A stretch of 6,972 nucleotides of DNA, from the IMG/VR virus record IMGVR_UViG_2700989366_000013. One strand, given 5' to 3'. Both the position numbers and the translations under genes were made by a program. This document shows, piece by piece, positions 1-6,567 of this stretch. Position 1 is the first letter of the stretch, and each line of letters begins with the position of its first letter. The notes below the pieces were generated by a model. It saw nothing but the letters and a program-made list of their open reading frames with translations. It ran no database searches and had not been told where the DNA came from. The DNA comes from a virus. Taxonomy: Duplodnaviria > Heunggongvirae > Uroviricota > Caudoviricetes.

Positions 1-1392
1 ATGACAACACCAGTCTGGCGTAATGATGACCTGGAAGGCGCTGTCATTGGCGCATTCTTTCTGCGTGGGGCAGATCATGAAGTGATGGATATTCTGATCA
101 CACTACCGGCGGACATTTTTTCTGTACGAGCGTATCGGGATATCTACACAGGCATCTGCAGACAGGCCCGTGTTTCAGGAGTGATTGACCCCGTGCTGTT
201 GTGTAATGAGATGCCGGAACTTGCCCCGGTGATTACTGATACCGGGCGTAAAACCTGGGTGAAGTCTTCACTGGAGCACTATGTTGCAGCGTTGCGGCGC
301 AATGCCGCACTGCGCGATGCAGAAAAAACACTGAATGAGGCGCTGCAGAAATTACGTGATGCGCATACCTGTGAAGCAGCTGAAGATGCCCTGAAGGATG
401 CGCAGAACATGATGGTCACACTGTCGACAGGAAAGGGCGTCATTCAGCCGGTACATATTGATGATGTGCTTCCGGAAGTGGTTGAGCGTGTTGAATGCCG
501 GAATCAGGGGCTGGAGAAATCCAGGACGTTGATGACCGGTATTGATGAACTGGACGCAAAAACAGGCGGTATGGAGCCCGGAGACCTGGTATTCATTGCC
601 GCCCGTCCTTCGATGGGGAAAACCGAACTTGCGCTGGACATCATCGACAAGGTGACTGAGCAGGGGCATGGTGTGCTTCTGTTCACCATGGAGATGGCGA
701 ACATCCAGATTGGTGAACGTATGGTGTCTGCGGCTGGAGGGATGCCAGTATCACGCCTGAAATCTGTGGCTCACTTTGAAGATGAAGACTGGGCGCGTTT
801 CTCACAAGGGGTGGGGCGGATGACCGGGCGCAATATCTGGATGGTGGACCAGGCGAACCTGACCATTGATGAGATATGCGCAACAACGAAACACCATCTG
901 ATTAAACATCCGGAAACGGCGCTGGTGGTGGTTGATTATCTCGGGCTGATAAAAACCCGAACCACGGGGCGTCATGACCTTGCCGTGGGTGAAATCTCAA
1001 AGGGGCTTAAAGGCCTGGCAAAATCCGGTGGTTTTCCGTTGATTGCGCTGAGCCAGCTCTCCCGCGGTGTGGAGTCCAGACCCAATAAACGTCCCATGAA
1101 CTCAGACCTGAAAAATTCCGGAGAAATAGAGGCGGATGCAGACATCATTCTGATGCTTTACAGGGATGAAGTGTACAACCCGGATACACAGGCTACAGGC
1201 ATAGCAGAAATTAATATCACGAAACAACGTAACGGTTCTCTGGGGACGATTTACCGGCGTTTTTATAACGGACATTTTCTGCCTGTGGACCAGGAAAGCG
1301 CACAGGTTCTTTCCACCCCAATGCGGCAGCCCCAGCCGCGCAGATACAGCAATACACGTACCGACAGCAGTAAGATGGAGCGTTTCTTTTGA
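1..1392 (+). CDS. DnaB-family replicative DNA helicase, phage-encoded
   Basis: 463-aa ORF. N-terminal segment resembles the DnaB N-terminal domain (DDLEGAVIGAFFL...ILITLPADIF). Walker A P-loop FIAARPSMGKTELALD, Walker B-like ALVVVDYLGLI, and the DnaB C-terminal motif block SQLSRGVESRPNKRPMNSDLKNSGEIEADADIILMLYRDEVY are present. The ATG sits at window position 1, so the true start could lie upstream. Confidence 0.85.
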   Translation: MTTPVWRNDDLEGAVIGAFFLRGADHEVMDILITLPADIFSVRAYRDIYTGICRQARVSGVIDPVLLCNEMPELAPVITDTGRKTWVKSSLEHYVAALRRNAALRDAEKTLNEALQKLRDAHTCEAAEDALKDAQNMMVTLSTGKGVIQPVHIDDVLPEVVERVECRNQGLEKSRTLMTGIDELDAKTGGMEPGDLVFIAARPSMGKTELALDIIDKVTEQGHGVLLFTMEMANIQIGERMVSAAGGMPVSRLKSVAHFEDEDWARFSQGVGRMTGRNIWMVDQANLTIDEICATTKHHLIKHPETALVVVDYLGLIKTRTTGRHDLAVGEISKGLKGLAKSGGFPLIALSQLSRGVESRPNKRPMNSDLKNSGEIEADADIILMLYRDEVYNPDTQATGIAEINITKQRNGSLGTIYRRFYNGHFLPVDQESAQVLSTPMRQPQPRRYSNTRTDSSKMERFF

Positions 1393-1403
1393 ACAACCAG
1401 ACA

Positions 1404-1646
1404 ATGACTTTTACCTCTGAACAATTGCGTAAACACGCGCAGGAAATGTTGCGACAGGCGGAACAACTGGAAAAAACAGGTGTAACAAAAGATGCCATTC
1501 GTCGGGATATGGTGCCAGCGCTCAGGGAACTGATGCAGGCGAAACATCGCGCACAAAAAGCGGTGGATGAGCTCGTTGATTGTGTGGCAGAGCTGGAAAC
1601 CAAAGTTGGAAAGTTTGAAAAAATGGTGCAGGAGGTGCTGCGCTGA
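1404..1646 (+). CDS. small hypothetical phage protein, about 80 aa, predicted coiled coil
   Basis: The ORF track starts at a TTG (1389); the first ATG is at 1404 (MTFTSEQLRK...). Charged, heptad-like sequence (QAEQLEKT...AVDELVDCVAELETKVGKFEKMVQEVLR). Its stop TGA (1644-1646) shares the A with the rusA ATG (1646-1648), and an AGGAGG lies at 1630-1635, consistent with translational coupling. No recognisable domain. Confidence 0.45.
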   Translation: MTFTSEQLRKHAQEMLRQAEQLEKTGVTKDAIRRDMVPALRELMQAKHRAQKAVDELVDCVAELETKVGKFEKMVQEVLR

Positions 1647-2017
1647 TGCGCCATGAGTTTATTTTACCTTATCCGCCGACGGTGAATACTTACTGGCGAC
1701 GTCGTGGCAGCACATATTTTGTATCAAAAGTTGGTGAGCGTTATCGCCGTGATGTGACGCTAATTGTTCGCCAGCAGCGGCTGAAATTAAACCTGTCCGG
1801 AAGGCTGGCGATAAAGATTATTGCAGAGCCACCGGATAAGCGCCGTCGTGACCTGGACAATATCCTGAAAGCACCACTGGATGCGCTGACGCATGCCGGA
1901 CTACTCATAGACGACGAGCAGTTTGATGAAATCAATATTGTGCGCGGTCAGCTCGTTCCTGGTGGGCGACTGGGCGTGAAGATTTATGAAATCACAGGTG
2001 ATAACGATGGCGCGTGA
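1646..2017 (+). CDS. rusA: RusA-family Holliday junction resolvase (crossover junction endodeoxyribonuclease)
   Basis: 123-aa ORF with the RusA family signature ([12 protein letters not shown]..., [27 protein letters not shown]) and the typical size and position for a lambdoid nin-region rusA. Confidence 0.85.
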
Positions 2018-2393
2018 TATTCAGCAGGTTATGGAACGGTGGGGGGCTTGGGCTGCAAACACTCATGAAGATGTATCCTGGGCGTCGATCGCTGCTGGTT
2101 TTAAAGGGTTAATTCCGTCGAAAGTGAAATCACGCCCTCAGTGTTCTGATGATGATGCAATGATAATTTGTGGCTGTATGGCCCGGTTGAACAAGAAAAA
2201 TCAGGATTTGCACGATTTGCTGGTGGATTATTACGTAGGTGGAATGACTTTTATGAGTCTGGCACGGAAACATGGGTGTTCGGATACCTGTATTGGCAAG
2301 CGCCTGCAGAAAGCGGAAGGGGTTATTGATGGCATGTTGATGATGCTTGATATCCGGCTGGAGATGGACAGATACGTAGAACGAATTATGTAG
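2007..2393 (+). CDS. late-gene antitermination protein Q (QuuD / Q21-like type)
   Basis: [38 protein letters not shown]...[18 protein letters not shown]...[23 protein letters not shown]... resembles, from memory, the Q-type antiterminators of DLP12/Stx-type lambdoid phages. Start chosen at ATG 2007 because AGGTG (1996-2000) lies 6 nt upstream; an in-frame ATG at 1986 is an alternative. It overlaps the rusA 3' end and is immediately followed by a promoter-like element. Confidence 0.6.
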
Positions 2394-2397
2394 GTGC

Positions 2398-2427
2398 TTG
2401 ACCAGACACATTGTCCGGGGCTATATT
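2398..2427 (+). promoter_or_regulatory. candidate late promoter (pR'-like) immediately downstream of Q
   Basis: TTGACC (2398-2403), 18-nt spacer, TATATT (2422-2427), beginning 5 nt after the Q stop codon. This is the expected position of pR' and the qut site in lambdoid phages. Confidence 0.35.
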
Positions 2428-2480
2428 CCTCACGCGCCAGCAAAATCTGGCGTCGGGATTGGAACCCCGGATAGAGACCG

Positions 2481-2503
2481 CGACAGACACACGCCGCGAG
2501 CGT
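2481..2503 (+). terminator. intrinsic terminator (tR'-like) after a short leader
   Basis: Hairpin ACACGC (2481-2486) / GCGTGT (2492-2497) with 5-nt loop, followed by TTTTTATT. It lies about 60 nt downstream of the candidate -10. Confidence 0.45.
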
Positions 2504-2702
2504 GTTTTTTATTGTCGTATGCACGCGCACATCTGAATTATGGTGGGGCGCATGGGGGAGCTGAAAAGCTCGCCGGTCGGTTTCCCGGTAGTTCCAACCC
2601 TGTGCGTCTCACCACCCGATGATTGGAACCTGACGGTGTTGACAGTTTCAGGTTTGCAGTTTACATTTCCCCGCGGTGCTCAAAACACCTCGAAAGCGGT
2701 AT

Positions 2703-2730
2703 CCACACCCGATAGCCATGTGGTTTTTTT
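2703..2730 (+). terminator. weak second terminator-like hairpin plus T-run
   Basis: CCACA (2703-2707) / TGTGG (2719-2723) with 11-nt loop, then TTTTTTT (2724-2730). Short stem, so low confidence. It sits inside the N-terminal extension of the 2676 ORF call, which argues against that start. Confidence 0.25.
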
Positions 2731-2873
2731 GTGTCCAGAATTCTTGGTTTATGACCGGGTGTGCGGCTAATACAATACCAGCAATGGAAATACGCCCGCC
2801 GACTTTCGACGGTTTTGAGCGCCCGGTCACCCTCTCAAAAGGGGTAAATCAAAATATTCGAAAGGACATGTCT

Positions 2874-3437
2874 ATGAATCGCACGTCTATTGAAAAACTC
2901 CCGTCACTTACGCATAACCATCTTCCTGTCATGACAACAGAGCTGCTGGCTGATTTGTACGGAACAGAGCGCCAGCGTTTGACAAACAATTTCAATCGAA
3001 ACAAAGAACGGTTTATAGAAGGTAAACATTTTTTCCTGATAGAAGGTGATGCGTTACGAGAGTTGAAGAACGAAAACTCTTTAAGAGTTTCTGTGAAAAT
3101 TGCCCGTAACGTTCGCTCCCTCATCCTCTGGACAGAACGTGGCGCAGCCCGTCACGCCAAAATGCTCGAAACCGATCAGGCGTGGGAAGTGTTCGAAAAA
3201 CTGGAAGACTGTTATTTCAACCAGAAACAGCCACCAGCGGCACAAAACACATCTATCGAAAATGATGGATGCGCATTACTGAGCCACTTCGATAAACACG
3301 GTCAGGTTGAGTTCACGGAAAAGGTACCCGCCGATGCGATGGTATGTACTCTGGAACGGTTTAAATTTTATCTGGAGCAACACGGGTGGATCGTTGCCCG
3401 TAAAGAGCAACTGGTGGAGCGGTTGATGCGGTTTTAA
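2874..3437 (+). CDS. ORF6N-domain protein (phage antirepressor-like / DNA-binding), about 187 aa
   Basis: The segment LPVMTTELLADLYGTERQRLTNNFNRNKERFIEGKHFFLIEGDALRELK matches the recalled ORF6N-domain pattern (L..LYG.....L...RN.ERF....F.L). Start set at ATG 2874 with AAAGGA (2861-2866) 7 nt upstream; ATG 2868 is in frame two codons earlier. The longer 2676 start would run through a hairpin and T-run and lacks an RBS. Confidence 0.6.
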   Translation: MNRTSIEKLPSLTHNHLPVMTTELLADLYGTERQRLTNNFNRNKERFIEGKHFFLIEGDALRELKNENSLRVSVKIARNVRSLILWTERGAARHAKMLETDQAWEVFEKLEDCYFNQKQPPAAQNTSIENDGCALLSHFDKHGQVEFTEKVPADAMVCTLERFKFYLEQHGWIVARKEQLVERLMRF

Positions 3438-3512
3438 AAATTTTTTCCGAAAACTTTACGATCGTAAAAAGTTGAATATCCTGTTAAGAGTGGTTACTAC
3501 GCCACACAGCTT

Positions 3513-3539
3513 AAACCCGCCGATGAGCGGGTTTTTTTA
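3513..3539 (+). terminator. intrinsic terminator downstream of the ORF6N-domain gene
   Basis: AAACCCGC (3513-3520) / GCGGGTTT (3527-3534) with 6-nt loop CGATGA, running into a 7-T tract (3532-3538). Confidence 0.55.
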
Positions 3540-3588
3540 TACCTGAAAAACGGCACAGGACGTTAAACGTGCTGGTGGTCAGATGAGT

Positions 3589-3626: not shown

Positions 3627-3703
3627 GGCCCTTTAGCTCAGTTGGTCAGAGCGAGCGACTCATAATCGCCAGGTCGCTGGTTCAAGTCCAGCAAGGGCCA
3701 CCA
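3627..3703 (+). tRNA. tRNA-Ile2 (anticodon CAU, lysidine type; ileX/ileZ-like); elongator tRNA-Met not formally excluded
   Basis: 77 nt including CCA. Hand-folded cloverleaf: acceptor GGCCCTT/AAGGGCC, D-stem GCTC/GAGC, anticodon loop CTCATAA, T-arm GCTGG-TTCAAGT-CCAGC. Sequence closely resembles E. coli ileX as recalled. Confidence 0.85.
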
Positions 3704-3704
3704 A

Positions 3705-3781
3705 CCACCACTAGCTCATCCGGATAGAGCATCAACCTTCTAAGTTGACGGTGCGAGGTTCGAGTCCTCGGTGGTGGGCCA
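3705..3781 (+). tRNA. tRNA-Arg (anticodon UCU, reads AGA)
   Basis: 77 nt including CCA. Acceptor CCACCAC/GTGGTGG, anticodon stem TCAAC/GTTGA with loop CTTCTAA, T-arm CGAGG-TTCGAGT-CCTCG. Begins 1 nt after the previous tRNA. Confidence 0.85.
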
Positions 3782-3783
3782 GC

Positions 3784-3859
<76 letters not shown>

Positions 3860-3862
3860 TAT

Positions 3863-3937
<75 letters not shown>

Positions 3938-4219: not shown

Positions 4220-4550
4220 GTACAGCGCTCGGTATGTGTGAGCTGGAAATCAGATTTTGCATGGACTGGAATCATGCTGTTATTTAGGGGCGAAGAACTG
4301 GCTTTTTCTTCCGCCTTCTCACCAGTAACGATTAGAAAAATAATGAAATGCCCCCCTCCGGGGAGGAGGACCGAAGAAAAAAGGCCCCGCCAGCAAAAAC
4401 ATTGGGGATGAACAGCTTTCGCTACTCAGATTGCTGGCGGGTAAAGTTCCTCATGAATTAAGAATGCTACGCGATCTTTTTTAATGGAAATGAAAATTAT
4501 TGTCAATTAGTCGTGCGTGTTTTTTCATACAATATTGGTAAAGGTGATTC

Positions 4551-4587
4551 AGGCCATCAGAGTTTTGCTGATGGCCTTTTTTCTTTC
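4551..4587 (+). terminator. strong intrinsic terminator in an ORF-free region
   Basis: Perfect 10-bp stem AGGCCATCAG (4551-4560) / CTGATGGCCT (4568-4577) with 7-nt loop, followed by TTTTTTCTTT. There is no T-run on the opposite strand, so it is + strand specific. Confidence 0.55.
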
Positions 4588-4845
4588 CGATAGCACAGGT
4601 CTGTCGGGGGGAAAACGTTTTTTGTACATTGTGGATTTTTACATGCTGATATGATTTATTTTCAATTAAATCAATTAGATATGACCTTGCCTTTAATTTC
4701 ACTAATGAAAGTTTGGGGGTGAGGTAACGCTATAAGCGTAGAGAATTCGGTGTATGTCGTGACCGTGTCATTTACAGCATTTTTGATGCCAGAAAATGTA
4801 CATTAACAGCAGAAAGCACCAGTGAGGGGGGTGCCCCTATTAAGT

Positions 4846-4851
4846 TGTCAA
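4846..4851 (-). promoter_or_regulatory. -35 half (TTGACA) of a predicted circle-junction promoter at the IS right end
   Basis: + strand TGTCAA at 4846-4851 is a perfect TTGACA on the - strand, 6 nt beyond the transposase stop. The next 17-35 nt on that strand (+ coordinates 4811-4829) contain no -10-like hexamer. Confidence 0.35.
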
Positions 4852-4856
4852 GCATG

Positions 4857-6053
4857 TTATGACCCCTGCGGGGTATAAAAAGTCCCGTCGCGCATCATGG
4901 CGAACAGAACGTCGCAGCGTCGTCTCGCCAGGGCGATAAGCGCCTGATTGTGTCGTTTTCCCTGACTCATTTTGCGGGTGTAGTAAGCCCTGGAGAGCGG
5001 ATCCCTGAGCGCGGCGAAGGCCGACAGGAACAACGCCCGTTTGAGAGCTTTATTACCCCGTCGCGAGGGATGCTCACCGCGTATTGACGAGCCGGATCGC
5101 CGAGTTACCGGCGCAAGGCCAGCATAAGCAGCGAGATGTGCGGCAGAGGCGAAGGCGCGGCAGGCGACCTCGGTGAGGAGTCTGGCTGCGGTCCTGACAC
5201 CGACTCCGGGCATACTGGTCAGGACCGGGTAAAGAGGGTGAGCAAGAACTCGCTGTTCTACCTCAAGCGCCACCTCGTCTCTTTGCTTACGCAGCGTGAT
5301 GAGCTGGAGTGCCAGACGTGGCAGTACTACGGCAGCGGCATTCGTGCCGGGAACGACGACGGTTTGTTCGGCCAGTGCCTGAGCTATGTCTGCTGCAAGG
5401 CGTTTACCCAGACGAGGCGCAAGTTTGCAGAGCTGGGCTGCCAGCTTCTTCTCACCCAGCGAAGCGAGTTTTTCTGGTGAGGGATATCGCTGGAGAAGAT
5501 CGAGTACCGCCGGGTGCTCAAGTCTCGGACCGAGAACGCGCTCCAGTGCCGGATGTATCTGGGTCAGAAGGCCGCGGATACGGTTGCTGGCCTGCGTTGT
5601 CTGTGCGGCAAGATCATCATCGAAGCCGCAGAGCATGGAGAGTTCGGCGATTTGCTCGTCAGCCAGTTTCAGCGTGCGTAGCGCGTGAGGCAGGGTACGG
5701 GCAGCTTCGGCAATGATGGCAGCGTCACGAGCATCAGTTTTAGCTTCACCGGCGTGTAAGTCGGCTATGCGGCGCATGGCCAGTCCAGGGAGGTATCCGA
5801 CAAGGACTCCTTCTGAGCGGGCAACGGCGACAGGTAACGCACCGATGGTAGCTGGCTGATCAACAACCAGCAGTATCTGACCATGTTGTTTCAGGTCAGA
5901 TATTAGCGACCTGAGTTTGTTTTCGTCGTTGGGTAATGCTTTATCGAACAGGCGTTTACCTGAACGATTAATGGCAACAGCGTGATGCGTATCTTTACCG
6001 ACATCAACGCCGATAAAGACCTGGACGGATTCGTAATCGCTGGATTCGGTCAT
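4857..6053 (-). CDS. IS110-family transposase/recombinase (DEDD RuvC-like N-terminal domain plus Tnp C-terminal domain), 398 aa
   Basis: N-terminus VFIGVDVGKDTHHAVAI (DEDD catalytic aspartates). C-terminal block MPGVGVRTAARLLTEV...AAYAGLAPVTRRSGSSIRGEHPSRRGNKALKRALFLSAFAAL...QGKRHNQALIALARRRCDVLFAMMRDGTFY is characteristic of IS110/IS116/IS900-type transposases. RBS GGGAGA on the - strand lies just upstream of the ATG at 6053. Confidence 0.9.
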   Translation of the reverse strand: MTESSDYESVQVFIGVDVGKDTHHAVAINRSGKRLFDKALPNDENKLRSLISDLKQHGQILLVVDQPATIGALPVAVARSEGVLVGYLPGLAMRRIADLHAGEAKTDARDAAIIAEAARTLPHALRTLKLADEQIAELSMLCGFDDDLAAQTTQASNRIRGLLTQIHPALERVLGPRLEHPAVLDLLQRYPSPEKLASLGEKKLAAQLCKLAPRLGKRLAADIAQALAEQTVVVPGTNAAAVVLPRLALQLITLRKQRDEVALEVEQRVLAHPLYPVLTSMPGVGVRTAARLLTEVACRAFASAAHLAAYAGLAPVTRRSGSSIRGEHPSRRGNKALKRALFLSAFAALRDPLSRAYYTRKMSQGKRHNQALIALARRRCDVLFAMMRDGTFYTPQGS

Positions 6054-6059
6054 TCTGTC

Positions 6060-6255
6060 TCCCTTGTATATGGGTTAACCAGATAACCACGGGGAGCAGG
6101 TACCGGCATCCACGTTACAGACGGTCCCGGCAAAAGTGCCTGACCTGACCCCTATTAGCGGTTACCAGCGCCCCACCAGACCCGGTGACATCACCCCCCG
6201 GATCATGGACGACTGGGGGCAGTAATCATGCCGGGTCTGGCTGGCTAACACCCCA
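6060..6255 (-). ncRNA. candidate IS110 bridge RNA in the transposase 5' leader
   Basis: About 195 nt, GC-rich, non-coding, between the - strand TATAAT (6255-6260) and the transposase RBS. Contains a perfect 10-bp long-range inverted repeat CCAGACCCGG (6176-6185) / CCGGGTCTGG (6231-6240) enclosing a nested C6/G5 stem (6194-6199 / 6215-6219). Position and size fit the IS110-group bridge RNA; no covariance-model support. Confidence 0.3.
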
Positions 6256-6260
6256 TTATA
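6255..6260 (-). promoter_or_regulatory. -10 half (TATAAT) of a predicted circle-junction promoter at the IS left end
   Basis: + strand ATTATA at 6255-6260 is a perfect TATAAT on the - strand. In the integrated state the position 17 nt upstream on that strand reads CCCGTT, not a -35. Confidence 0.35.
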
Positions 6261-6567
6261 AGGGGTACGAATAAAGTAACGGGGGTTCTTTTATTCTGTT
6301 ATATTGCATTTTTATTCACTTCGGTTTTGTCAGGCTTGCGGAATTAGCGAGCAGAGAGCGCCGTTCTGTTCACCAATAATCTAAATTACTCATCAAAATG
6401 GCTAATATATAATCTTGAAATTATTCTGAGAGTTTCAGAAAATAACAGCTGAAATAATCTCGCGCAAGACTGTAAATAGATTAAATTTTGTGGAAATATA
6501 ATAAGTGATCGCTTACACTACGCGACGAAATACTTTTTTGTTTTGGCGTTAAAAGGTTTTCTTTATT

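What the first reader, a model, noticed from the sequence alone, without database searches (positions are those of the whole stretch)
4838..6270. Split promoter halves at the two IS ends predict a circle-junction promoter and fix the element boundaries
Read on the transposase strand, a perfect -35 TTGACA sits 6 nt beyond the transposase stop (4846-4851) and a perfect -10 TATAAT sits at the far end of the 5' leader (6255-6260). Neither has a partner in the integrated state. Joining the right end to the left end with 17 nt between the hexamers would create a consensus promoter driving the leader RNA and the transposase, as described for circular intermediates of IS110-family elements. That constrains the ends to roughly 4829-4845 and 6261-6277, giving an element of about 1.43 kb.
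Basis: partly seen in the sequence, partly recalled or inferred. Interest (0 to 1): 0.5.

Follow-up and report, generated by a model that had tools for sequence, protein, structure and literature searches.

The report
ISEc20 ends: mis-paired promoter hexamers
The two perfect promoter hexamers sit at the ends of a known insertion sequence (ISEc20), but when the ends are joined they lie about 38 bases apart, not 17, so they cannot form the proposed promoter, and the TATAAT lies in the loop of a conserved hairpin at the start of the element's guide ("bridge") RNA.

Summary
The element is ISEc20, a catalogued IS110-group insertion sequence with a DEDD transposase (4857-6053).

Nine copies in different contexts, empty sites and natural head-to-tail arrays place the ends at about 6280-6285 and 4826-4831. 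The unit is about 1,453 bp.

Across about 70 relatives (73-82% protein identity):
- TTGAC in the right end is invariant.
- TAC(T/C)(T/A)T at left-end bases 3-8 is nearly invariant.
- The TATAAT position lies in the apex of a hairpin whose stem covaries. This hairpin is followed by two internal-loop stem-loops, which is the bridge-RNA architecture.

The more likely junction promoter is TTGACA plus TACTTT (6278-6273). Its spacer is 17-22 nt, depending on how many C's the junction holds, and is 20 nt in the observed junction. The transcription start would fall at the hairpin base. This is inferred, not shown.

The element, its bridge RNA and the junction-promoter concept are all already known. 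Interest is low.

The parts
4826..6285 (-). ISEc20 copy. The invariant body is 4832-6280 (GTTAC...ATAGGGGCA, 1,449 bp), with C-runs at both junctions (6285-6281 and 4831-4826). The exact crossover point inside the C-runs is ambiguous.
   Evidence: The RefSeq annotation of near-identical copies is 'IS110-like element ISEc20 family transposase'. Nine contexts share exactly this body. Tandem arrays have a period of 1,452-1,453 bp.
4857..6053 (-). Transposase / bridge recombinase, 398 aa.
   Evidence: Pfam DEDD_Tnp_IS110 (E = 6.9e-49) and Transposase_20 (E = 7.1e-22).
4846..4851 (-). TTGACA, a conserved -35-like hexamer in the right end, 14 nt upstream of the terminal C-run.
   Evidence: TTGAC(A/G/T) is present in 73 of 73 right ends of relatives, at 5 or 6 nt from ATAGGG, while the spacer between them varies.
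4832..4840 (-). ATAGGGGCA, the right-end donor segment. It matches the 5' side of the second internal loop of the leader RNA.
   Evidence: The leader carries CUAAUAGGGG at 6158-6149. The G/A at the seventh base covaries between right end and leader in 71 of 73 loci.
4826..4831 (-). Right-junction C-run (6 C), containing the crossover core and target-derived C's.
   Evidence: There are six C's in nearly all copies and relatives. They are complementary to the invariant GGGGGG in the leader.
6281..6285 (-). Left-junction C-run (5 C here, 3-5 in other ISEc20 copies), made of target sequence plus the core.
   Evidence: The run is preceded by G in 38 of 69 sites, mirroring YG-CCCCC in the leader.
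6273..6278 (-). TACTTT, bases 3-8 of the left end. It is the candidate real -10 of the junction promoter and also part of the donor sequence GTTAC recognised by the leader.
   Evidence: TACTTT, TACTAT or TACCTT is present in 84 of 86 loci. It is the best-scoring partner of TTGACA in reconstructed junctions. It lies a constant 6 nt before the hairpin.
6249..6267 (-). The 5' stem-loop UACCCC-UUAUAAU-GGGGUG.
   Evidence: 60 of 61 relatives fold a hairpin at this place. Covariation count: 96.9% of cells paired, 4 of 7 pairs with compensatory changes, 0 of 500 shuffles reach the observed value.
6175..6241 (-). First internal-loop stem-loop (target-binding-loop-like). Its 5' side is UACUGCCCCCAG (6224-6213) and its 3' side is GGGGGGUG (6199-6192).
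   Evidence: RNAalifold finds a consensus stem with compensatory pairs. The 3' side is invariant, and the 5' side varies just upstream of the C-run.
6103..6169 (-). Second internal-loop stem-loop (donor-binding-loop-like). Its 5' side is CUAAUAGGGG (6158-6149) and its 3' side is GUAACGUGG (6118-6110).
   Evidence: RNAalifold stems show compensatory pairs. GUAACGUGGAUG is invariant in all 61 aligned sequences and is complementary to (C)CGTTAC at the left-end start.

Best explanation
The interval holds one copy of ISEc20, an IS110-group insertion sequence.

Its roughly 230-nt left end encodes a bridge RNA made of three parts: a 5' stem-loop (6267-6249), a target-binding-type stem-loop (6241-6175) and a donor-binding-type stem-loop (6169-6103). 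The DEDD recombinase gene follows.

The guide-like loop sequences match the element's own ends (ATAGGGGCA and CGTTAC) and a poly-C target.

The two hexamers do not form one promoter, because joining the ends puts them about 38 nt apart. TATAAT is the loop of the RNA's 5' hairpin.

The conserved right-end TTGACA most likely does act as the -35 of a junction promoter. Its partner would be the conserved TACTTT at left-end bases 3-8, with transcription starting about 7 nt later at the base of the hairpin (about 6267-6265). That geometry resembles IS621. The spacer is 16 nt plus the number of C's in the junction, and is 20 nt in the junction actually observed.

Shown: the ends, the 38-nt distance, the RNA structure and covariation, and the conservation of TTGAC and TACNNT.

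Inferred: that TTGACA and TACTTT work as a promoter, and where transcription starts.
For: Identity: Pfam domains, RefSeq naming, and the ISEc20;ISSfl4 cluster listed with a left-end bridge RNA in the supplement of Durrant 2024.

Ends: nine contexts and empty sites.

Real junctions: tandem arrays read GGGGCA-CCCC-GTTAC. No 16-18-nt sigma-70 pair is found there.

Promoter scoring:
- TTGACA + TACTTT is the best or second-best pair for 1-4 C's, scoring 12.2 down to 8.8. GTTACT edges it slightly at 3-4 C's.
- The shuffle 95th percentile is 9.6.
- TATAAT only ever pairs with CCGTTA, scoring 6.9, which is near the shuffle median of 6.0. That pairing is the same whether the element is integrated or joined.

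Conservation: TTGACN in 73 of 73 right ends, TACNNT in 84 of 86 loci.

Hairpin: covariation supports it, and the distance from TACNNT to the hairpin is constant.

RNA body: 19 compensatory pairs in the two large stem-loops. The 168-nt RNA folds with z = -3.43.

Donor guide: it covaries with the right end in 71 of 73 loci.

IS621 precedent: a promoter reconstituted across the core, a -35 in the right end, a 191-bp left end and a 177-nt RNA.
Against: - In the only directly observed junction the TTGACA-TACTTT spacer is 20 nt. With the same junction C count it would be 21 nt in the many relatives whose right-end spacer is one base longer. Both are poor for sigma-70.
- TACTTT matches TATAAT at only 3 of 6 positions, though these are the key T, A and final T.
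- TACNNT overlaps the donor recognition sequence GTTAC, so it may be conserved for recombination rather than transcription.
- TTGAC could be conserved as a protein or RNP contact.
- No transcript-end data exist for this element.
- The number of C's in a true circle junction is not settled. Different site comparisons imply 1 to 6.
Confidence: 0.55

Rival explanations
1. One reading: on circularisation, TTGACA (right end) and TATAAT (left end) come to lie 17 nt apart and form a consensus promoter. This would place the ends at about 4829-4845 and 6261-6277.
For: Both hexamers are perfect and lack partners in the integrated state. Junction promoters are documented in the family.
Against: All copies share 20 nt upstream of TATAAT and at least 14 nt downstream of TTGACA. 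The tandem-array junction gives 38 nt. Other junction states consistent with the site comparisons give 35-40 nt. TATAAT is not conserved and lies in a covarying hairpin. The consensus scan of the real junction finds nothing.
Confidence: 0.02
2. TATAAT is a junction-independent internal -10 with no usable -35. It drives a leader that starts at about 6248 and lacks the 5' half of the hairpin. The conserved TTGAC has a non-promoter role, such as a recombinase or RNP contact or a subterminal recognition site.
For: - TATAAT is a perfect -10.
- Many proteobacterial relatives keep a -10-like hexamer with A at position 2 and T at position 6 (GATAAT, AATAAT, TACAAT, GACAAT, GATCCT) at the same place.
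- Low-level expression from integrated IS621 copies is needed for excision.
- The TTGACA-TACTTT spacer is long in the observed junction.
Against: - The best -35 for TATAAT is CCGTTA, with a score near the shuffle median.
- In relatives these bases are mostly stem positions of the hairpin (GA-UAA-UC), and the stem covaries. That argues both arms are transcribed.
- Actinobacterial relatives have a longer, unrelated hairpin at this place.
- IS110 bridge RNAs are described as starting with a 5' stem-loop.
Confidence: 0.25
3. There is no dedicated promoter. The leader and transposase are expressed by read-through from flanking genes, and both hexamers are incidental or serve recombination only.
For: Read-through transcription suffices for IS621 excision. 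Neither hexamer is statistically unusual in the window. No canonical promoter is found in the integrated or joined state.
Against: TTGAC is invariant across Proteobacteria and Actinobacteria while its neighbours vary. It lies at a fixed distance from the end, upstream of a conserved TAnnnT, which is the pattern expected of a promoter.
Confidence: 0.15

Closest known systems
IS621 (IS110 group) bridge-RNA system with its right-end/left-end junction promoter (Durrant et al. 2024, PMC11208160; Hiraizumi et al. 2024, PMC11208158; PMC13626964)
   Same: - A DEDD recombinase with the same two Pfam domains.
- A long left end and a short right end.
[quoted passage not shown]
- Loop sequences that match the element's ends and its target.
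- A -35-like element in the right end.
- A candidate -10 in the first bases of the left end, with the RNA starting about 15 nt into the left end.
   Different: - The recombinase is 398 aa. I recall IS621's as about 326 aa, from memory and not checked here.
- The target and crossover lie inside a poly-C run rather than at a CT core, so the junction length is variable or ambiguous.
- The match to the right-end donor segment stops a few bases short of the crossover.
- The candidate promoter spacer is 20 nt in the observed junction.
- No RNA-seq or biochemistry exists for ISEc20.
ISEc20 / ISSfl4 as catalogued (RefSeq annotation; ISfinder names as listed in the supplement of Durrant 2024)
   Same: Near-identical sequence: 99.5-100% to many E. 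coli and Shigella copies. The supplement places the bridge RNA of this cluster in the left end.
   Different: Nothing substantive. This particular insertion, upstream of stpA, was not found in the 5,426 complete E. coli genomes searched.
Pjunc promoters of IS1111-group elements (ISEc11, IS4321/IS5075). They are cited in PMC13626964; the details are from my own knowledge.
   Same: The concept of a -35 at one end and a -10 at the other, assembled only in the circle.
   Different: Those elements carry their guide RNA in the right end and have long subterminal inverted repeats. Here the RNA is in the left end and no long inverted repeats were seen.

Membership tests
IS110 family, IS110 group | DEDD-type transposase with DEDD_Tnp_IS110 (PF01548) and Transposase_20 (PF02371) domains | tested here: met
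   E = 6.9e-49 and 7.1e-22, both above the curated cut-offs.
IS110 family, IS110 group | Long non-coding left end and short right end | tested here: met
   The left end is about 227 nt (6280-6054). The right end is about 25-31 nt after the stop codon (4856-4826).
IS110 family, IS110 group | Sequence-specific insertion with only a short shared core at both junctions, and no long terminal inverted repeats | tested here: met
   All sites are C-runs. The junctions share only C's. No terminal inverted repeat was seen by eye in the end alignments, but the repeat finder was not run.
IS110 bridge-RNA systems | Left-end RNA with a 5' stem-loop plus two stem-loops that carry internal loops, supported by covariation | tested here: met
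   19 compensatory pairs; 5' hairpin, 0 of 500 shuffles; z = -3.43. No Rfam family matched the left end.
IS110 bridge-RNA systems | The second loop matches the element's own ends (donor guides) | tested here: met
   CUAAUAGGGG matches the right-end TAATAGGGG. The G/A covariation holds in 71 of 73 loci. GUAACG(U)GG is complementary to CCCGTTAC.
IS110 bridge-RNA systems | The first loop matches the target (target guides) | tested here: inconclusive
   The leader's YG-CCCCC and GGGGGG fit the G + C-run targets. For the 3 nt upstream of the run, the own-versus-shuffled comparison gives only P = 0.018. The wild-type alleles of two sites do not reconcile with the junctions.
   38 nt in tandem-array junctions. 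The scan at 16-18 nt finds nothing.
   TTGACN is present in 73 of 73 right ends. The TATAAT position varies and lies in a covarying hairpin.
Circle-junction promoter of the IS621 type (-35 in the right end, -10 in the first bases of the left end) | A promoter that exists only when the right end is joined to the left end, and that drives the bridge RNA | not testable with these tools
   The sequence is compatible: TTGACA + TACTTT, with a spacer of 17-22 nt depending on the junction C count. Activity and the transcription start need experiments.

The most novel reading that the evidence does not exclude
In this clade the crossover lies inside a homopolymeric C-run, so the number of C's left in the right-end/left-end junction is not fixed. 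The comparisons made here imply 1 to 6. That number sets the spacer between the conserved TTGACA and the conserved TACTTT, which ranges from 17 to 22 nt. The recombination register would then act as a dial on bridge-RNA and recombinase expression. Only some circles would fire the promoter strongly, and tandem or mis-registered junctions would be nearly silent.
Probability: 0.12. Interest if true: 0.5.

Novelty: already known. Interest (0 to 1): 0.15.

Why it matters
It matters little beyond correct annotation. ISEc20 is a catalogued element, its left-end bridge RNA is already predicted in the literature, and junction promoters are an established feature of the family.

Three things are useful here:
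- A correction: perfect consensus hexamers at insertion-sequence ends are not enough to fix boundaries.
- A concrete anatomy for this element: ends, guide-like segments, the 5' hairpin and a better promoter candidate.
- The observation that natural tandem arrays supply real right-end/left-end junction sequences without any experiment.

Tried and rejected
- The Rfam scan of the whole window at E <= 1 found no family over the left end. The RNA was therefore characterised from relatives instead.
- The literature search for 'ISEc20' found no mechanistic paper.
- I tried to fix the exact crossover and the number of C's in the circle by counting C's at junctions against empty sites. The results conflict. 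The terminase allele L011 implies 6. The alpha-2-macroglobulin-family gene alleles with 7 or 8 C's imply 3 or 2. Tandem junctions show 4. Three right junctions reading GGGGCA-CGTTAC suggest 1. The number is left unresolved. Homopolymer slippage or assembly error may contribute.
- I tried a model with a 'CA' core, using the overlap of the guide-like segments. It fits the right junctions and three wild-type targets, but it fits only 2 of about 70 left junctions, so I rejected it as the general rule.
- I fetched K-12 yfhM to count C's in an intact allele. The O55/O157 gene turned out to be a different alpha-2-macroglobulin paralogue with no match there.
- I considered pairing between the leader's UGUCA and the right-end TGACA. 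I dismissed it because UGUCA is part of a basal stem.
Full report
**Observation.**
Read on the minus strand, the window has TTGACA at 4851-4846 and TATAAT at 6260-6255. They flank a 398-aa ORF at 4857-6053. Two details in the finding are slightly off. Five nt, not six, separate the stop codon from TTGACA. TATAAT is not at the far end of the leader, because 20 nt of element sequence lie upstream of it. Taken alone, neither hexamer is unusual in the window: TTGACA occurs 4 times against 4.6 expected, and TATAAT 4 times against 2.0 expected.

**What the element is.**
The ORF carries DEDD_Tnp_IS110 and Transposase_20 domains. The interval is 99.5-100% identical to copies annotated 'IS110-like element ISEc20 family transposase' (ISSfl4 in Shigella). 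More than a thousand complete E. coli genomes hold such copies, as do plasmids. The supplement of Durrant et al. 2024 lists the ISEc20;ISSfl4 cluster in the IS110 group with its bridge RNA in the left end.

**The ends.**
I compared the window with eight other copies in different contexts. All share exactly GTTACTTTATT...(window 6280)...AACTTAATAGGGGCA (window 4832), which is 1,449 bp. A run of 3-5 C's precedes this body and a run of usually 6 C's follows it.

The uninterrupted site of the window's copy, between alaE and stpA, is present in 5,416 of 5,426 complete E. coli genomes. Empty alleles were also recovered for a phage terminase site and for an alpha-2-macroglobulin-family gene.

The clearest evidence comes from natural head-to-tail arrays of ISEc20:
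- two copies on plasmid NZ_CP024616.1;
- three copies in chromosome NZ_CP024056.1.

Their periods are 1,453 and 1,452 bp. Their right-end/left-end junction reads TTGACA ACTTAATAGGGGCA CCCC GTTACTTTATTCGTACCCCT TATAAT. One variant has GGGGCCCCC.

Any junction consistent with the other site comparisons gives 35-40 nt. The actual ends are about 6280-6285 and 4826-4831, and the unit is about 1,453 bp. The scanning tool finds no sigma-70-like pair at 16-18 nt in the real junction.

**What the hexamers are: comparative evidence.**
One scan of species-representative genomes returned 80 loci. About 70 encode relatives at 73-82% protein identity, in Burkholderiales, Oxalobacteraceae, other Proteobacteria and Microbacteriaceae.

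Right ends:
- The consensus is GCTTGAC(A/G)A, then 4-5 variable bases, then C-ATAGGG(G/A)CA and a C-run.
- TTGACN is present in 73 of 73 right ends found.
- It lies 5 or 6 nt from ATAGGG, and the bases in between vary.

Left ends:
- All begin with GTTAC.
- Bases 3-8 are TACTTT, TACTAT or TACCTT in 84 of 86 loci.

Hairpin:
- Six nt further on, 60 of 61 sequences fold a hairpin.
- The stem covaries: ACCCC/GGGGT, GCCCC/GGGGC, CCTCGA/TCGAGG, CCTTGA/TCAAGG. Actinobacteria have longer stems.
- On 31 proteobacterial sequences, 96.9% of cells pair, 4 of 7 pairs show compensatory changes, and 0 of 500 shuffles reach the observed score.
- In relatives the same columns read GA-UAA-UC (mostly stem), GAGCCUC or GAUCCUC, or unrelated sequence.

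TATAAT is therefore not conserved as a -10, whereas TTGAC is conserved as strongly as a functional element would be.

**The leader is a bridge-RNA-type molecule.**
Downstream of the hairpin, RNAalifold on 61 sequences recovers two long stem-loops with internal loops. Nineteen pairs show compensatory changes. The 168-nt RNA from 6267 to 6100 folds as hairpin plus two stem-loops with z = -3.43. This is the architecture described for IS110 bridge RNAs.

The second loop carries two donor-matching segments:
- CUAAUAGGGG (6158-6149) is identical to the right-end TAATAGGGG. The G/A at its seventh base matches the right end in 71 of 73 loci.
- GUAACGUGG (6118-6110) is invariant in all 61 aligned sequences. 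It is complementary to CCCGTTAC at the left-end start if one U bulges out. Durrant et al. describe a similarly discontiguous pairing for the IS621 right donor guide.

The first loop carries two target-matching segments:
- (Y)G-CCCCC on its 5' side, with variable bases just upstream.
- An invariant GGGGGGUG on its 3' side.

These fit the observed targets. The left junctions end in a C-run that is preceded by G in 38 of 69 sites, and the right junctions almost always carry six C's. The assignment of each segment to a guide role is by analogy with IS621 and is inferred, not tested.

**A better promoter candidate.**
If the hairpin is the 5' stem-loop of the RNA, transcription must start within the first 14 nt or so of the left end. 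The promoter must then span the junction.

I scored reconstructed junctions with position weight matrices whose frequencies I set from memory to approximate published sigma-70 tables:
- TTGACA + TACTTT is the best or second-best pair for 1-4 C's. GTTACT edges it slightly at 3-4 C's.
- It scores 12.2 at N17 with one C, 11.1 at N18 with two, 9.6 at N19 with three and 8.8 at N20 with four.
- The shuffle 95th percentile is 9.6.
- TATAAT never gains a partner. Its best is CCGTTA-N16 at 6.9, against a shuffle median of 6.0, and that pairing is identical in the integrated and joined states.

A start 7 nt after TACTTT falls at 6267-6265, the base of the hairpin and about 15 nt into the left end. IS621 has the same geometry: a 191-bp left end, a 177-nt RNA and its -35 in the right end.

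Weak points:
- The spacer is 20 nt in the one junction actually observed. With the same junction C count it would be one base longer in the many relatives whose right-end spacer is 6 nt.
- TACNNT overlaps the donor sequence, so its conservation may reflect recombination rather than transcription.
- No transcript data exist for this element.

I put this model at about 0.55.

**What I could not resolve.**
The crossover lies inside C-runs on both partners, so the exact core and the C count of a true circle are ambiguous. Different comparisons imply different numbers:
- 6 from the terminase allele L011;
- 3 or 2 from the alpha-2-macroglobulin-family gene alleles with 7 or 8 C's;
- 4 from tandem junctions;
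- 1 from three right junctions that read GGGGCA-CGTTAC followed by non-element sequence.

The widespread wild-type alleles of the stpA-upstream site (GAAAACACCCCTCAC) and the terminase site (CCCGACCACCCCCAGC) both contain CA + C-run. That motif is complementary to the leader's GGGGGGUG. Neither allele can be converted into the observed junctions by a simple conservative exchange. Homopolymer slippage, assembly error, imprecise excision or half-match events may be involved. None of this affects the main conclusion, because the 20 + 14 nt of shared sequence between the two hexamers is fixed.

**Comparison with what is known, and verdict.**
ISEc20 is a catalogued member of the IS110 group. It works, as far as sequence can show, like IS621: a recombinase plus a left-end bridge RNA, with a -35-like element in the right end. 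The junction-promoter idea is established.

The -10 was mis-assigned, so the spacing, the ends and the length are wrong. Novelty: already known. Interest: low.

Noticed in passing
L100 (NZ_CP024616.1) 331-3240; L101 (NZ_CP024056.1) 331-3563: Natural head-to-tail arrays of ISEc20, two and three copies with periods of 1,453 and 1,452 bp. The junction reads GGGGCA-CCCC-GTTAC, with one variant GGGGCCCCC-GTTAC. They could arise from a circle integrating into a resident copy.
   Followed up: partly
window 4606-4611 (G6 run, + strand); L022/L023: In S. flexneri SFBU1023 another ISEc20 copy has its right junction exactly at this run. Locus L022 continues from the element into window 4611 down to 3740 at 99.5% identity. 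Window 4612-4825 is therefore absent next to that copy, and its left flank is unrelated. This suggests an IS-mediated rearrangement, and the run is an unoccupied target-like site in this window.
   Followed up: partly
window 4826-4831 and 6281-6285; L009, L011, L017, L018: The common wild-type alleles of two insertion sites contain CA + C4-5 (GAAAACACCCCTCAC and CCCGACCACCCCCAGC). The occupied sites lack the A(A/C)CA on the left and have six C's on the right, so the relation is not a simple conservative exchange. A frameshifted terminase allele (CCCGCCCCAGC) looks like an excision product.
   Followed up: partly
L025, L027 (E. coli ECMA0423, S. flexneri SFBU1023) about 2114-2135; L064 (Cupriavidus laharis) about 2115: Three right junctions read ATAGGGGCA-CGTTAC followed by sequence that is not the left end. 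Here the flank mimics the element's own left-end start. CACGTTAC is the perfect complement of the invariant leader segment GUAACGUG.
   Followed up: no
L006, L010, L019 (alpha-2-macroglobulin-family gene of O55:H7 and O157:H7): O55:H7 strains carry ISEc20 in this gene. O157:H7-type strains have the site empty but with 7 or 8 C's, and the gene is annotated as frameshifted. This may be a footprint or homopolymer variation. The gene is not K-12 yfhM (no match).
   Followed up: partly
window 2421-2836 and 3627-3934: Upstream of the element, Rfam finds a c4-a1b1 target (2421-2473), isrK (2434-2510), C4 antisense RNA (2536-2619), sRNA-Xcc1 (2753-2836) and four tRNA genes (3627-3934). This looks like a phage-type or island segment. 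It lies on the alaE side of the ISEc20 copy, where the first 91 nt of the flank query (window 4525-4615) did not match the E. coli alaE-stpA region.
   Followed up: no
L028-L099: Close relatives of the ISEc20 recombinase (73-82% aa) with the same leader occur in Burkholderiales, Oxalobacteraceae, gammaproteobacterial MAGs and many Microbacteriaceae. That breadth implies wide horizontal spread. In some Actinobacteria the TGA inside TTGAC appears to be the stop codon of the recombinase gene; I read this by eye and did not check it by translation.
   Followed up: no
L012 (CP042949.1), L014, L015, L016: Plasmids carry decayed or truncated left-end fragments of ISEc20-like elements at 75-94% identity without an intact transposase. 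One example lies next to ompT on ColV-type plasmids.
   Followed up: no
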